From assembly GCF_009931435.1 (NCBI RefSeq), contig NZ_CP043414.1: DNA of 64,000 bases. One strand, given 5' to 3'. Numbering within the stretch: the first letter of the stretch is position 1; each line of letters begins with the position of its first letter. Shown here one piece after another: positions 45,001-48,000 of the stretch. Position numbers: made by a program. This DNA is from Escherichia coli. Its GTDB lineage: Bacteria > Pseudomonadota > Gammaproteobacteria > Enterobacterales > Enterobacteriaceae.

Positions 45001-48000
45001 GAAAAGACTGTGCAGAAAACATTATGAGAGGTTTTGTGAGCTCAAAAAAAGAAGAGAGCAAAATCCTGTTCACAGATTAAATGAAGCATTGCCAAGAAAG
45101 GTAGAAGGCCCAAAAAGAAAGAGGAAATTAGTAAAAGAAAGAGAAATCATTAACAGCAGGACGAAACATAAACAGGAGCAGGGACCATCTCTGGCTGAAC
45201 TTAATAAAAAAGTTCGTGAGATACTGAAAACCCCGGCATGGAGAACGCTGGAAACGAGAATTCGAAGAAACGGTATCACATTTAATTCAAAAGCAGAGTT
45301 AGATGCGCTTTCTGAACTTTATGCAATTTATTCATGGGTTTCATATTGCAAACGGTGCGATAATTATTCTGTGTGGTTTTTGAATTGTCCGGATGTAAAT
45401 ATAAATCTTCATGTGTGCGAATGCCGGTCTTCTGAAAGCGATTGTTATCTGCCATCCCGTTTTATTATTCTTCCAGCTCCATTAAGGCAAAAAGTAAAAA
45501 GAAAATACTCTGCTAATTCGTCTGGGGTATCAGGACATAATGATTCAAAAAGTCTTTATAAGACAGTTTTGTCTGTTTGTGGTGGGAAAAGAGAAACCGA
45601 ATTGTTCTTTTATTCACTGCCAGTAAAGACTAATCATCATCCTTACTGGATTAAAAGTGGTGTGGTTAAAAGATTTCCTCCTGTTTTTGGTTTGTTGTTT
45701 TATGAACAGGAAAGATTAACAGGAGGTGTTTTTCGTTATGTGTTGATAAGGTTTTATAATACTTTTAAGGAGAATTTGTTTTTTGTTGAGATTGTCTCGT
45801 GCTGTTTTCTTGTTGAGCTTTTTCATGATATTGATTCGTTTTTTATAAATCAACGATTAAGTAAGCTGGAAAGTTTTATAGATAAGTGGAGGGAGGGTAA
45901 AGAAATCTGGATAAAAGCATATCTACAACTGATACATAATACATTGGGAATAACTGAAACAGAAAAACTCGTCAATCTATATAATTCATTTTTTACTGAT
46001 AAAGTGGTTATCTGGGATGAATCAGTAAAAAAAGTTAAGTGGATTTATGAGAAATAGTACCATTTAACTGAAAGCCACCATAACGTCTTTTTGACTACAT
46101 CCATGATAATGAGTCTCATTTTGATTTCGTTTTTTTGTTCCGGGAAATTTTCCGAACATCAGTGATAATGAGGGTTTTGTTGTTTTTGTTTCTGCAATGT
46201 TTGAGGGCTGTTCCTGGAGATGATTCGTTGCTTGTGAGCAAGAGGTGGTCCGCTTTACTGGACAAGTTTTGCATTTGTTGAGTGGTGAAATGGAAGTAAA
46301 AAGAGCCCCTTTCTGGCAATGACTGAAAAAGTCAGTAGCGTGTGACAGTAAAAACTAACATAAAGTGATTATCGTATGATTATGACAATGACTTATAACT
46401 TTTATGAAAAGAACAACAGAAACTATGAAACCATAGCAGATTCCTGAGACCATGTTTTTTGAGGTAGAGAAAATAATTCAAGAGTAAACCAGTTTGTTTT
46501 TTGATCAGTAAAGAACCATGCCTGATGTGAAAACGGGTAATCAACATTCAGTCTGCATGAGTGTCTGAGAATGTTGCTAATGTCGGTATGATACTATATA
46601 CACATATTTTACTAAGTATTTTTACTAAGCATTTCAGTAAGTGTTATACACGTATTTTCTACTAAGTGTTTTACCAGACATACACGTATTTTCATAAACA
46701 CTTCTACAAGTGTTTTCATTAAGTATTGTTATACACATTGCTTTGTCTGACACACATCCGGTTTAGTAAATCTTTACGTTAGCTAAAATCAGTTTAAAGC
46801 TGCTACAAAGCAATCTTTCCTGTTTAAGCAATCAAGATGACATTCTGTTTTTCTGAAGTTACGTTTAACCTTTTCTGAGTTTTTGTGTTTTTGGTCGTTA
46901 ACCGGAGAAAAGTATCTTTACGTAAAAACGCAAATCCGACTGAGATAACCTGGCGTGATTTACGGAGTGCTTACGACGATTTAGTTAAATGGTTTTATGG
47001 ATGATTTTGTAGCGATGAGGTTGATGAGATGATTAACTGGCCCTGGTGTTTTTTTTCTCAGAGCAAGGCTCTTTTCAGAAAAAGCGTGATGATTGGTTCT
47101 GGTGTTTTGATTCAGATGAGGTTTACGTTATCGATGGTTAATCGCTTTTATGGTGCGTAGTGAAACGTAACATTTTCAGGATGAGAAAATCGATTCTGAT
47201 GTTAGTGGTTTTTGTTCTTGGGGTGGGGTTATCTGTAAACAGGTTTTAAACGCGCTATTCGGCTCTGTGATTGAGTTGTGTGGTTAAGCTATAGGTTTTG
47301 GTGTTGTTGTTGATTCACAGCGCCAGAAATCGTTCTGATTGCGTTTTTGATGTTTTGTTTGCACGTTCTGTTGATCCGTTTCCCTTCTGACTTTTCTCGT
47401 CGTCCATGCCGTTTTTAAATTCATTTGCTGTTGTTGTGTTTTTTTACCATCTTTTCGTTTGTAGGGGATTCCATTTTTATCCGGAGTAGGTTGTGTTGCT
47501 CAATGGTGGGAGTTCGTAAAGTTTTACCGCGGTGATTAATGATGTGAAGTCAATCCAAATCAATGGAGATCTCTCATCATGAATCAACCAATACACAATG
47601 CTTACTGGTTATCCCGTTTTGAAAGTATTCTCAACAGTGCCCTGGCGCAACACCGTGCCGTCTCGTTAATCCGGGTGGATTTACGTTTCCCTGAGTATAT
47701 GCCTGCCACCATTATGGATACCGATTTAGATTCAGCGGTGATTTCTCGTTTTTTCGAATCCCTGAAAGCAAAAATTCAGGCTTACCAGCGACATAAACGA
47801 CGTGCCAACAAGCGTGTGCATGCAACCACTCTGCGTTATTTCTGGTGCCGGGAGTTCGGCAAGGAAAAAGGCAGGAAACATTATCACGTGATATTACTGC
47901 TCAACAAAGATACCTGGTGCTCGCCAGGGGATTTCACCGTTCCTTCTTCGCTGGCGACGCTGATCCAACTGGCATGGTGCAGTGCTCTGCATCTTGAGCC

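What the first reader, a model, noticed from the sequence alone, without database searches (positions are those of the whole stretch)
46590..46750. Iterated direct repeats in the long non-coding AT-rich stretch upstream of the YfjJ-like gene
ATACAC(A/G)TATTTT occurs three times (about 46600, 46646, 46679) interleaved with TACTAAGT/CAGTAAGT/TACAAGT motifs within ~150 bp, iteron-like. The surrounding ~1.5 kb (46058-47578) lacks convincing ORFs. Could be binding sites for the adjacent regulator, a replication/partition remnant, or a promoter array.
Basis: seen in the sequence. Interest (0 to 1): 0.4.

Follow-up and report, generated by a model that had tools for sequence, protein, structure and literature searches.

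The report
Polymorphic repeats beside island Rep-like gene
A real block of short direct repeats, whose copy number varies between strains, starts at the edge of a deeply conserved promoter-like box about 1 kb upstream of a Rep-like (HUH) nuclease gene carried by genomic islands in about a third of complete E. coli genomes; the repeats are probably protein-binding sites that control, or mark an origin for, that nuclease, but this has never been tested.

Summary
ATACACRTATTTT occurs exactly at 46598, 46646 and 46680 (0.25 expected per 64 kb). It lies in a head-to-tail array of about 12 units of 12-13 nt (46598-46749). The surrounding 1.5 kb has no conserved ORF and no Rfam match.

- **Where it occurs.** The window is an E. 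coli selC-type island. The non-coding unit 46460-47578 plus the downstream gene is found in about 1,860 of 5,426 complete E. coli genomes, essentially always unannotated.
- **Variation.** Array length ranges from 91 to 208 nt (16 alleles in 21 loci).
- **A conserved box.** The array begins at the 3' edge of a 15-20 nt box, (TGTYG)GTATAnGTAWTATAT. This box lies upstream of this gene family in many genera and nowhere else in 424 kb. In K-12 yagK it coincides with an RNAP-SELEX promoter.

Best reading (about 0.4): lineage-specific reiterated binding sites (iterons or operators) for the HUH protein in a combined promoter and origin-like control region. Rivals: operators for another protein, a neutral minisatellite, or an RNA-level role. 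It is not a classical theta-type iteron origin or a par centromere.

The parts
46466..46580 (+). Conserved leader upstream of the box. It starts AGAGAAAATAATTCAAGAGTAAA and contains CAGTCTGCATG. Homology among island variants begins here.
   Evidence: Conservation profile of 13 diverged copies rises from about 0.4-0.65 to 0.8-0.93 at 46460. Alignments.
46574..46579 (+). -35-like hexamer TTGCTA.
   Evidence: It aligns with TTTAGA of the K-12 yagK promoter (TTTAGA-16-TATAAT), which is listed as an RpoD holoenzyme SELEX promoter in PMC3946193. The spacer here is 15 nt to TATATA, which is suboptimal. This is an inference by alignment.
46581..46600 (+). 'Gp2 box' TGTCGGTATGATACTATATA. It contains the -10-like hexamers TACTAT (46592-46597, preceded by TGa) and TATATA (46595-46600).
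   Evidence: Related box (TGTYG)G(A)TATA(T/G)GTAWTATAT found 72-435 nt upstream of Gp2/YagK/YfjJ-family genes in K-12 yagK, Providencia, Morganellaceae and 8 IMG/VR contigs. There are 12 regex hits in 424 kb x 2 strands, all upstream of and co-oriented with such a gene. TGTCGG is the only GTCGG in each intergenic region that has it.
46598..46749 (+). Repeat array: about 12 head-to-tail units of 7-19 nt (mostly 12-13). They group into super-units that each start with ATACAC. Copy number is polymorphic.
   Evidence: Allele length is 91-208 nt, with 2-6 ATACAC units and 2-9 xAAGYRTT units, in 16 distinct alleles from 21 loci. One allele carries a perfect 49-nt duplication (L009).
46598..46610 (+). 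ATACACATATTTT, copy 1. It overlaps the 3' end of the box.
46611..46645 (+). Three B-type units: ACTAAGTATTTTT, ACTAAGCATTTC and AGTAAGTGTT.
   Evidence: Consensus over 88 units from variants is TcanTAAGtaTTtt.
46646..46658 (+). ATACACGTATTTT, copy 2.
46680..46692 (+). ATACACGTATTTT, copy 3. It begins the best-conserved super-unit (46680-46730).
   Evidence: Column conservation is 0.87-0.96.
46696..46715 (.). Palindrome AAACACTT-CTAC-AAGTGTTT (8-bp arms).
   Evidence: The left arm is mutated without compensation in about half of the variants (AAACAATT, AAACAGCC), so a hairpin is not clearly selected.
46729..46737 (+). TTATACACA, an exact match to the DnaA-box consensus TTATNCACA. 46596 and 46644 match 8 of 9.
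   Evidence: There are only 2 exact matches in the 64 kb. However, the TTAT part varies between alleles, and 1-mismatch boxes are common (82 found, 64.5 expected).
46750..46770 (+). Conserved 3' boundary of the array, ACACACATCCGGTTTAGTAAA.
   Evidence: Present in all PAI-type copies.
46771..47578 (+). About 800 nt of G+T-rich, C-poor non-coding leader running to the Gp2 start codon. The RBS GGAGA is at 47565.
   Evidence: GC skew up to +0.46 and AT skew down to -0.58. No conserved ORF. No terminator-like site. No consensus RNA structure except near 47460-47580. Divergence is no lower than synonymous divergence of the gene.
47579..48310 (+). Gene for a 243-aa HUH endonuclease of the YagK/YfjJ ('inovirus Gp2') family. 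It has HYH at 101-103, YLVK at 213-216, and a 37-aa disordered insertion at 153-189.
49335..49568 (+). AlpA-family HTH protein (77 aa), co-oriented downstream. It is a candidate alternative binder.
   Evidence: PF05930 at 2e-10. Gp2 and AlpA are adjacent in other genera.

Best explanation
The repeats are a lineage-specific, reiterated set of protein-binding sites (iterons or operators) in the control region of the island's HUH endonuclease gene.

**Anatomy.** A conserved box (46581-46600) carries the -10 region of the gene's promoter. It is the one element shared by this gene family across genera. The array (46598-46749) is a tandem reiteration of the sequence that begins at the box's 3' edge: ATACAC-R-TATTTT followed by xAAGTRTTTT units.

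**Proposed mechanism.** The HUH protein binds the double-stranded repeats through its origin-binding surface, as parvoviral Rep/NS1, geminiviral Rep and pMV158 RepB bind their direct repeats. This (a) represses or tunes its own promoter and (b) positions the enzyme next to a conserved core site where it could nick one strand. The array grows and shrinks by slippage or unequal recombination.

**Shown:** the repeats, their polymorphism, their fixed position next to the box, the linkage of box and gene, and the HUH fold and catalytic residues of the protein.

**Inferred:** that the box is an active promoter in this island (by alignment to yagK), that the HUH protein is the binder, and that any nicking or replication occurs.
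For: 1. The repeats are far beyond chance.
2. The non-coding unit 46460-47578 always accompanies the HUH gene while the upstream genes vary. This is seen in 16 E. coli loci, in a copy of the island module on one plasmid examined (3 further plasmid records match), and in about 1,860 genomes.
3. The array starts at the 3' edge of a box that is conserved upstream of this gene family in different genera and in different neighbourhoods. All 12 regex hits in 424 kb x 2 strands are upstream of and co-oriented with such a gene.
4. In K-12 yagK the box coincides with an RpoD-holoenzyme SELEX promoter, TTTAGA-16-TATAAT (PMC3946193).
6. An independent array occupies the same position in another genus. 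Jinshanibacter has 4.4 x 36 nt starting in its box, and Providencia has 3 x TATGTGTTT just after its box. Different repeat sequences in the same architecture is what co-evolving Rep/iteron pairs look like.
7. K-12 paralogues carry the same short words right after their boxes: AGTAAGAGT as an inverted repeat in yagK, and rc-AGTAAGTG and AGACACATC in yfjJ.
8. From established knowledge of HUH Rep systems (AAV RBE, MVM (ACCA)n, geminivirus iterons, the pMV158 bind locus), Rep-binding direct repeats lie next to the nick site, and the rep promoter often overlaps them.
Against: - There are no binding, nicking or transcript data.
- Arrays are not universal. No repeats follow the box, or lie upstream of the gene, in Morganellaceae L025, L027 or L029. 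K-12 yfjJ and yagK have short upstream regions.
- Unit spacing is irregular (48, 34, 51, 19 nt between ATACAC starts; sub-units 10-15 nt), so sites are not helically phased.
- Non-coding divergence between alleles (0.04-0.21) is not lower than synonymous divergence in the adjacent gene (0.07-0.21). There is therefore no purifying-selection signal beyond recent common ancestry.
- The palindrome in the array is not maintained by compensatory changes.
- The array lies about 1 kb from the gene in E. coli.
- The box could simply be a promoter with a conserved spacer.
- In this window the island lacks a YfjI/DUF3987 helicase-like partner next to the gene, so any replication function may be vestigial.
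Confidence: 0.4

Rival explanations
1. The repeats are operator sites for a different DNA-binding protein. Candidates are the island's AlpA-family HTH protein (Xis/Cox-like proteins typically coat arrays of direct repeats), the WYL-HTH regulator of the divergent GTPase operon, the host or island H-NS (T-tract-rich DNA at 29% GC), or DnaA (the ATACAC units resemble TTATNCACA).
For: - AlpA is co-oriented and adjacent to Gp2 in most lineages.
- The array is the most AT-rich spot locally (GC 0.29).
- Each unit carries a T4-5 tract.
- Shimada et al. flag H-NS at the yagK promoter.
- The island encodes its own H-NS paralogue.
- 46729 is an exact DnaA box, and 46596 and 46644 match 8 of 9, all in one orientation.
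Against: - UTI89- and SX23-type elements keep the array although AlpA is no longer next to Gp2.
- The box and array stay with Gp2, not with AlpA or the WYL gene, when the neighbourhood changes.
- The TTAT half of the DnaA-like 9-mers is not conserved between alleles, and 1-mismatch DnaA boxes are common background (82 found against 64.5 expected).
- H-NS binding would not by itself explain exact 13-mers.
Confidence: 0.2
2. The array is a functionally neutral AT-rich minisatellite. It was generated and remodelled by replication slippage or unequal recombination in a dispensable part of a long leader, and it persists only because all copies are recent relatives.
For: - Copy number varies widely (91-208 nt; 16 alleles in 21 loci).
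- One allele has a perfect 49-nt duplication.
- One variant (SCU-101, L016) has the box followed by unrelated sequence.
- There is no excess conservation over synonymous sites.
- Leader and downstream haplotypes are reshuffled at the array.
- Spacing is irregular.
Against: - The array always abuts the conserved box.
- The innermost super-unit (46680-46730) and the 3' boundary are kept in every allele.
- An unrelated array occupies the same position in Jinshanibacter, and a smaller one in Providencia.
- The short words recur after the boxes of K-12 paralogues.
Confidence: 0.25
3. The repeats act at the RNA level. They would form the 5' end of a roughly 1-kb leader, or of a separate small RNA, started at the box promoter. 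The repeated U-rich words would bind Hfq or the island's ProQ/FinO-type protein, or would cause sigma-dependent pausing through TATTTT -10-like words as part of an antitermination switch.
For: - A promoter-like box lies immediately upstream, so a transcript would start within the first unit.
- The island encodes a ProQ/FinO-family protein.
- The leader is long, G+T-rich and C-poor, which is unfavourable for Rho loading on the sense transcript.
- Q-type and P. aeruginosa AlpA antiterminators use an element in the promoter spacer plus a -10-like pause site (PMC9371919).
Against: - There is no Rfam match at E<=1.
- No terminator-like site was found.
- The single-sequence fold is only mildly better than shuffles (z -2.1).
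- Consensus folding energies across 13 alleles are near zero.
- The ProQ gene is frameshifted in the closest genome.
- P. aeruginosa AlpA contacts DNA through residues R128-H142, beyond the length of the 77-aa AlpA-family protein here, so it is a larger protein and the comparison is only an analogy.
Confidence: 0.08
4. The array is a classical iteron-type theta replication origin or a plasmid-type partition centromere (parC/tubC-like), left over from a plasmid or phage ancestor.
For: - Head-to-tail short direct repeats lie in AT-rich DNA next to a replication-type gene, with one exact DnaA box.
- Centromere arrays such as R1 parC or pBtoxis tubC are also contiguous 11-12-bp units around a promoter (from memory).
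Against: - There is no RepA/pi/TrfA-type initiator and no ParA, ParM, ParR, TubZ or TubR gene in the neighbourhood.
- Units are not 17-22 bp, and they are not spaced at multiples of a helical turn.
- There is no DNA similarity to any plasmid or phage outside E. coli island copies.
Confidence: 0.05

Closest known systems
Origins of HUH (rolling-circle) Rep proteins that carry Rep-binding direct repeats: the parvovirus RBE (GAGC)n and NS1 (ACCA)n sites, geminivirus and circovirus iterons next to the conserved nonanucleotide, and the pMV158 bind locus
   Same: - An HUH endonuclease gene has a non-coding region directly upstream.
- A short core element is conserved across relatives, and lineage-specific direct repeats lie next to it.
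- The promoter of the rep gene overlaps the element.
- The protein's best structural matches are the parvoviral NS1/Rep origin-binding nickase domains.
   Different: - No nick site, ssDNA intermediate or Rep binding has been shown.
- The element lies in chromosomal integrative islands of 40-100 kb, not in a small replicon.
- The repeats are 12-13-nt units with irregular super-unit spacing and variable number.
- No conserved hairpin presents the core.
- The array is missing in several lineages.
The K-12 yagK promoter region in CP4-6 (RpoD constitutive promoter TTTAGA-16-TATAAT, H-NS flagged; Shimada et al. 2014, PMC3946193)
   Same: It is a homologous gene family, and the homologous box TGTTGGATAGGTATTATATAAT occupies the same position relative to the -10. 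Short AGTAAG words follow the box.
   Different: - yagK has a 271-nt upstream region.
- It carries a 9-bp inverted repeat rather than a direct-repeat array.
- The spacer in the window is 15 rather than 16 nt.
- The window promoter has not been tested.
Iteron-type theta origins (pSC101, F, P1, R6K, RK2)
   Same: Clustered direct repeats in AT-rich DNA near a replication gene, with one exact DnaA box.
   Different: - The initiator fold is wrong (HUH, not winged-helix RepA/pi).
- Unit length and phasing do not fit.
- No DUE-like 13-mers were identified.
Xis/Cox/Vis-type recombination-directionality and regulatory proteins, which bind arrays of direct repeats (lambda Xis X1-X1.5-X2, P2 Cox boxes)
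   Same: An AlpA-family (Xis-like HTH) gene lies in the same transcription unit. These proteins bind tandem direct repeats that overlap promoters.
   Different: - The array is not at an att site.
- The array persists where AlpA is not adjacent.
- No binding motif is known for this AlpA.
Q-type and P. aeruginosa AlpA antiterminator loading sites (binding element in the promoter spacer plus a -10-like pause element; PMC9371919)
   Same: The conserved sequence sits in the spacer and -10 part of the promoter. It is followed by -10-like words and then a long leader before the genes.
   Different: - No terminators are detectable in the leader.
- P. aeruginosa AlpA is larger than the 77-aa AlpA-family protein here (its DNA-contact residues are R128-H142); whether the two are related was not tested.
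- This is purely an architectural analogy.

Membership tests
HUH/rolling-circle double-strand origin (dso) with Rep-binding repeats | An adjacent gene encodes an HUH endonuclease with motif 2 (HUH) and motif 3 (catalytic Tyr). | tested here: met
HUH/rolling-circle double-strand origin (dso) with Rep-binding repeats | A short core sequence (the nick region) is conserved among relatives while flanks diverge. | tested here: inconclusive
   A conserved 15-20-nt box exists and is specific to the upstream regions of this gene family. It overlaps a promoter -10, and nicking has not been tested. Its resemblance to CTTGATA or TAGTATTAC nick motifs is from memory only.
HUH/rolling-circle double-strand origin (dso) with Rep-binding repeats | Direct repeats adjacent to the core are bound by the Rep protein. 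| not testable with these tools
   Repeats are present next to the box in E. coli, Jinshanibacter and (weakly) Providencia. They are absent in L025, L027 and L029. Binding requires EMSA or ChIP.
HUH/rolling-circle double-strand origin (dso) with Rep-binding repeats | The core is presented in a hairpin or cruciform maintained by compensatory changes. | tested here: not met
   The box is an AT-rich imperfect palindrome in some lineages only (for example GGTATATGTAATATACC in L042). The 46696-46715 palindrome loses pairing in about half of the alleles. The DNA fold z-score is -1.25.
Iteron-type theta origin | Winged-helix Rep initiator, 17-22-bp iterons at regular spacing of about 22 bp, and DnaA boxes plus an AT-rich DUE. 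| tested here: not met
   The initiator is HUH. Units are 7-19 nt, and ATACAC starts are 48, 34, 51 and 19 nt apart. There is one exact DnaA box, and it is not conserved between alleles.
Plasmid partition centromere (parC/parS/tubC) | A repeat array next to genes for a partition NTPase and a centromere-binding adaptor. | tested here: not met
   There is no ParA, ParM, TubZ or ParB/ParR/TubR family among the neighbours. The nearby GTPase is of the YfjP/MMR_HSR1 type, belongs to a divergent operon and is not linked to the array in all variants.
Sigma-70 promoter with downstream operator array | -35 and -10 hexamers at 16-18 nt spacing, with evidence of RNAP binding or a transcription start site. 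| tested here: inconclusive
   The homologous yagK element is an RNAP-SELEX promoter. In the window, TTGCTA-15-TATATA or TGaTACTAT (extended -10-like) are conserved. The consensus scan lists the overlapping CTGAGA-16-TATGAT. No TSS data were found.
Known RNA family (Rfam 15) | A covariance-model match. | tested here: not met
   No match at E<=1 in 45500-48000. No match at gathering score in the whole window.
DnaA-box cluster | Several TTATNCACA boxes conserved among homologues. | tested here: inconclusive
   One exact box (46729) and two matching 8 of 9 (46596, 46644) lie in one orientation. The TTAT half varies between alleles, and the conserved core is ATACAC(R)T.

The most novel reading that the evidence does not exclude
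The conserved box plus the adjacent repeat array may be the cis-acting origin (dso or oriT-like nick region plus Rep-binding element) of a so far unrecognised rolling-circle replication or mobilisation module. That module would consist of the YagK/YfjJ 'Gp2' HUH nuclease, often together with the YfjI/DUF3987 helicase-like protein and AlpA. It would be shared by CP4-57-like and PAI-type integrative islands of Enterobacterales, and probably by the tmRNA-associated islands of Pseudomonas. On this reading these 'cryptic prophages' and pathogenicity islands could amplify or transfer after excision, and the array copy number would tune that activity.
Probability: 0.2. Interest if true: 0.75.

Novelty: new member of a known kind. 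Interest (0 to 1): 0.45.

Why it matters
The CP4-57/PAI-type island backbone (integrase, AlpA, YfjI, YfjJ/YagK, YfjP GTPase, antirestriction, RadC, CbtA/CbeA) is present in a large share of E. coli genomes and in many other Proteobacteria. Yet the role of its Rep-like protein is unknown, and no origin, oriT or regulatory site has been defined for it.

This work pins down three things:
- a unit of a 1.1-kb non-coding region plus the HUH gene, found in about 1,860 of 5,426 complete E. coli genomes and essentially unannotated;
- a family-wide cis box;
- a polymorphic repeat array at its edge.

Together they give concrete, short DNA targets for binding and nicking assays with a protein whose catalytic residues are universally conserved. 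This makes the question 'do these islands replicate or mobilise by a rolling-circle mechanism, and how is that controlled?' directly testable. If the repeats prove neutral, the result is still useful for annotation: a conserved promoter/box and a long leader.

Tried and rejected
1. **Known RNA.** Rfam gave no hits, either with the E-value search of 45.5-48 kb or the gathering search of the whole window.
2. **Hidden gene or pseudogene in the 1.5 kb.** No ORF of 25 aa or more is conserved among 13 alleles.
3. **Conserved RNA structure in the leader.** Sliding-window alifold gave consensus energies near zero, except around 47460-47580.
4. **Purifying selection on the non-coding DNA.** Divergence is no lower than pS of the neighbouring gene, so this was uninformative.
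5. **DNA homology beyond Escherichia.** The plasmid search returned only 4 E. coli records, the phage search none, and an nhmmer profile against other genera found nothing significant. Only the short box is shared.
7. **Hairpin or nick-loop idea for 46696-46715.** It is not maintained across alleles.
8. **DnaA-box cluster.** One exact box exists, but it is not conserved and the background is high.
9. **The near-copy ATACACATATTAT at 51545.** It is isolated and looks like a chance match.
10. **Second YagK/YfjJ-like gene (49834-50382) and its counterpart on pNDM5_LS003.** They have no box or array upstream, and the HUH motif is lost.
11. **Literature.** No paper contains these sequences, and none assigns a function to the YagK/YfjJ/Gp2 family in islands.
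12. **PDB sequence search with the protein.** No hit. The fold search was needed.
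Full report
**1. The observation**

ATACAC(A/G)TATTTT occurs exactly at 46598, 46646 and 46680. With one mismatch allowed, the whole 64-kb window has four matches against 0.25 expected, and none of 100 shuffles reached four. The fourth match (51545) is isolated.

The 13-mers are only the most visible part of a larger structure. From 46598 to 46749 the DNA is a head-to-tail series of about twelve units, mostly 12-13 nt long. All begin with A, and most end in GTRTTTT:
- ATACACATATTTT
- ACTAAGTATTTTT
- ACTAAGCATTTC
- AGTAAGTGTT
- ATACACGTATTTTCT
- ACTAAGTGTTTT
- ACCAGAC
- ATACACGTATTTTC
- ATAAACACTTCT
- ACAAGTGTTTTC
- ATTAAGTATTGTT
- ATACACATTGCTTTGTCTG

The array is followed by a conserved boundary, ACACACATCCGGTTTAGTAAA. 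Tandem Repeats Finder sees a period-13 array, and the repeat finder sees 28- and 48-nt super-units. In 46400-46900 there are 25 repeated 8-mer positions, against a mean of 5.7 and a maximum of 16 in 500 dinucleotide shuffles.

**2. Where the window comes from and what surrounds the array**

The region is 99.9% identical to E. coli FORC064 and 98% identical to CFT073. It lies in an island next to yicL/setC, which is selC-type by its neighbourhood; this is my inference.

The gene order is:
- a leftward operon (YfjP-type GTPase, WYL-HTH, DUF905, DUF932, antirestriction, RadC-like JAB, YeeU/CbtA and others);
- a rightward 376-aa orphan gene (44927-46057);
- the 1.5-kb gap;
- rightward genes for a 243-aa 'inovirus Gp2 family' protein (47579-48310), a 201-aa orphan, AlpA (49335-49568) and a degenerate second YagK/YfjJ-like ORF;
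- a leftward ProQ/FinO gene.

RefSeq annotates nothing in the gap in 24 of the 25 best records.

**3. Distribution and conservation**

The 1.5-kb gap matches 1,877 of 5,426 complete E. coli genomes. The 261 nt around the array match 1,861 genomes, with up to six copies per genome and 68-99% identity. Outside E. coli chromosomes I found only four E. coli plasmids that have picked up a piece of the island, and no phage.

In sixteen diverged loci the gene upstream of the gap changes: the 376-aa orphan, a 407-aa orphan, leftward orphans, or IS elements. The genes downstream of Gp2 change too: orphan+AlpA, a restriction endonuclease, an acyltransferase, or YfjI. The non-coding stretch and the Gp2 gene always stay together. 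Alignable homology among variants begins at about 46460 and runs to the start codon.

No ORF is conserved in it. It has no Rfam match, no terminator-like site and no consensus RNA structure apart from a hairpin region near 47460-47580. Its 3' 800 nt are strongly G+T-rich.

Divergence between alleles is no lower than synonymous divergence in the Gp2 gene. Conservation therefore says little about function. Haplotypes of the leader and of the downstream part are reshuffled, with the array as the junction.

**4. The array is polymorphic**

Between the box (see section 6) and the 3' boundary, the array is 91-208 nt long. It has 2-6 ATACAC-type units and 2-9 xAAGYRTT units, and there are 16 distinct alleles among 21 loci. 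One allele has a perfect 49-nt duplication (L009), and others have extra or missing super-units. The innermost super-unit (ATACACGTATTTTCATAAACAMTTCTACAAGTGTTTTCATTAAG) is present in all alleles. Its palindrome (46696-46715) is broken without compensation in about half of them. One variant (SCU-101) has the box followed by unrelated sequence.

**5. The neighbouring protein is an HUH endonuclease**

- Pfam gives YagK_YfjJ_C (4.5e-37) and REP_ORF2-G2P (4.7e-9).
- PHROGs gives weak hits to phage replication initiators over residues 50-110.
- There is no sequence match in the PDB.
- An AlphaFold model has pLDDT 76.6, with a disordered 37-aa insertion.
- A profile search of 1.84 billion cluster representatives finds 1,469 family clusters, 399 of them at E<=1e-30.
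- In an alignment of 106 representatives at 28-42% identity, the invariant residues are E92, H101, H103 (HYHVILLL), W133, Y213 and K216 (YLxK). These correspond to the metal ligands and catalytic tyrosine of an HUH enzyme.

I found no paper that assigns a function to this family in islands. It is listed as a core gene of jumbo-phage-transduced Pseudomonas islands.

**6. A conserved box links the array to this gene family**

Immediately 5' of the first repeat lies TGTCGGTATGATACTATATA (46581-46600). Upstream regions of distant homologues (35-45% protein identity, or K-12 paralogues) share almost nothing with E. coli at the DNA level (nhmmer). Most nevertheless carry a related 15-20-mer, (TGTYG)G(A)TATA(T/G)GTAWTATAT, 72-435 nt before the start codon. 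It is present in K-12 yagK, Providencia, Morganellaceae and eight IMG/VR contigs. Diverged versions occur in yfjJ, Brenneria and Jinshanibacter.

Every hit is upstream of and co-oriented with a Gp2-family gene. The box stays with that gene in both arrangements seen: AlpA-DUF3987-[box]-Gp2, as in CP4-57 and the IMG/VR contigs, and GTPase operon <-> [box]-Gp2-AlpA.

In K-12 yagK, the box coincides with a promoter reported from RNAP-sigma70 genomic SELEX (TTTAGA-16-TATAAT, flagged H-NS) (PMC3946193). By alignment the window has TTGCTA-15-TATATA, or an extended -10-like TGaTACTAT that is conserved in all alleles. The box is therefore at least a promoter core. Its conserved spacer half suggests that something else also reads it.

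**7. Arrays at the same position elsewhere**

- In Jinshanibacter, a 36-nt unit (TTAGTATTAATAATATTAATACTAATAAATAGAGTG) is repeated 4.4 times, starting inside the box.
- In Providencia, three TATGTGTTT words follow the box.
- In K-12 yagK, a 9-bp inverted repeat of AGTAAGAGT follows the box, and yfjJ has the words AGTAAGTG (reverse orientation) and AGACACATC.
- In Morganellaceae L025, L027 and L029 I found no arrays.

Reiteration of box-proximal sequence is therefore recurrent but not universal, and the repeated sequence differs between lineages.

**8. Interpretation**

The best-supported reading is that the array is a lineage-specific reiteration of protein-binding sites, in a control region that combines the promoter of the HUH gene with its recognition site. 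The architecture consists of a conserved core, adjacent lineage-specific direct repeats, and a rep promoter overlapping them. From established knowledge, this is the architecture of parvoviral, geminiviral/circoviral and pMV158-type Rep origins. The protein's closest structural relatives are exactly the domains that bind such repeats. I put this at about 0.4.

What is shown is the anatomy and the linkage. Binding, nicking and transcription are inferred. The rivals are:
- operators for AlpA, the WYL protein, H-NS or DnaA (0.2). One exact DnaA box lies at 46729, but it is not conserved and the background is high;
- a neutral minisatellite (0.25). This is supported by the polymorphism, the SCU-101 variant and the lack of extra constraint;
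- an RNA-level role (0.08);
- a theta-type iteron origin or par centromere (0.05). This fails on initiator type, unit size and phasing, and the absence of par genes.

**9. Novelty and verdict**

Direct-repeat arrays next to Rep genes are a known kind of element. This one belongs to an uncharacterised, very widespread island module, and it comes with a family-wide box that I could not find described. I rate it a new member of a known kind, with moderate interest (0.45). The most novel reading not excluded is that the box plus array is the origin of a rolling-circle replication or mobilisation system of CP4-57/PAI-type islands. It has a probability of roughly 0.2 and would be of high interest.

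Noticed in passing
window 46581-46600; K-12 yagK upstream (L032 about 7143, minus strand); L023 3738; L025 3838; L033 2320; L034 2201; L037-L042 about 2078-2238: A 15-20-nt box, (TGTYG)G(A)TATA(T/G)GTAWTATAT, is conserved upstream of YagK/YfjJ/Gp2-family HUH genes across genera. It is absent elsewhere in 424 kb of fetched sequence. It overlaps the -10 of the SELEX-defined yagK promoter.
   Followed up: yes
L030 2573-2729 (Jinshanibacter sp., GCA_021010575.1): 4.4 copies of a 36-nt tandem repeat, each containing the palindrome TTAGTATTAATAATATTAATACTAA. The array lies 270-430 nt upstream of a Gp2-family gene and starts within its box.
   Followed up: partly
window 46771-47578: About 800 nt of strongly G+T-rich, C-poor non-coding leader (GC skew up to +0.46, AT skew down to -0.58). 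It has no conserved ORF, terminator or RNA structure, and its purpose is unexplained.
   Followed up: partly
window 47460-47580: This is the only stretch of the leader with a clearly better-than-shuffled consensus fold (about -15 against -4.8 kcal/mol). It lies just upstream of and over the Gp2 ribosome-binding site, so it could be a translational control hairpin.
   Followed up: no
window 46729-46737: TTATACACA is an exact DnaA-box consensus match (from memory, identical to oriC box R2). It is one of only two exact matches in the 64 kb and is not conserved in all alleles.
   Followed up: partly
L016 3040-3120 (E. coli SCU-101): This variant island has the box followed not by the ATACAC array but by different sequence. 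That sequence includes a perfect palindrome, ATATTAGC-AA-GCTAATAT, whose core TTAGCAAGCTAA matches, from memory, the SlyA/RovA consensus. An IS insertion lies further downstream.
   Followed up: no
window 49834-50382: A second YagK/YfjJ-like ORF (182 aa) has lost the HUH motif (KATIRCLLLL in place of KHYHVLLLL) and has no box upstream. It is probably a decayed paralogue.
   Followed up: partly
window 50384-50725 (-) and about 51620-52050: The island carries a ProQ/FinO-family gene (frameshifted in the closest RefSeq genome) and an H-NS-family paralogue. It therefore brings its own RNA chaperone and xenogeneic-silencing-type proteins.
   Followed up: no
window 44927-46057: A 376-aa orphan protein with a Cys-rich N-terminus (CVRKNC...CRKHYERFC) and no Pfam, PHROG or NCBIfam match. 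In other island variants the same slot is occupied by unrelated orphans.
   Followed up: no
L022 1380-2350 (ENA metagenome contig): A decayed element carries two tandem, degenerate copies of the leader+box+array module upstream of a frameshifted Gp2 gene.
   Followed up: no
L045 (plasmid pNDM5_LS003, NZ_OP290546.1) 4707-15040: A block of the island (orphans, non-coding unit, Gp2, YfjI, second Gp2-type, AlpA) has been transferred onto an IncI-gamma/K1 conjugative NDM-5 plasmid next to repA.
   Followed up: partly
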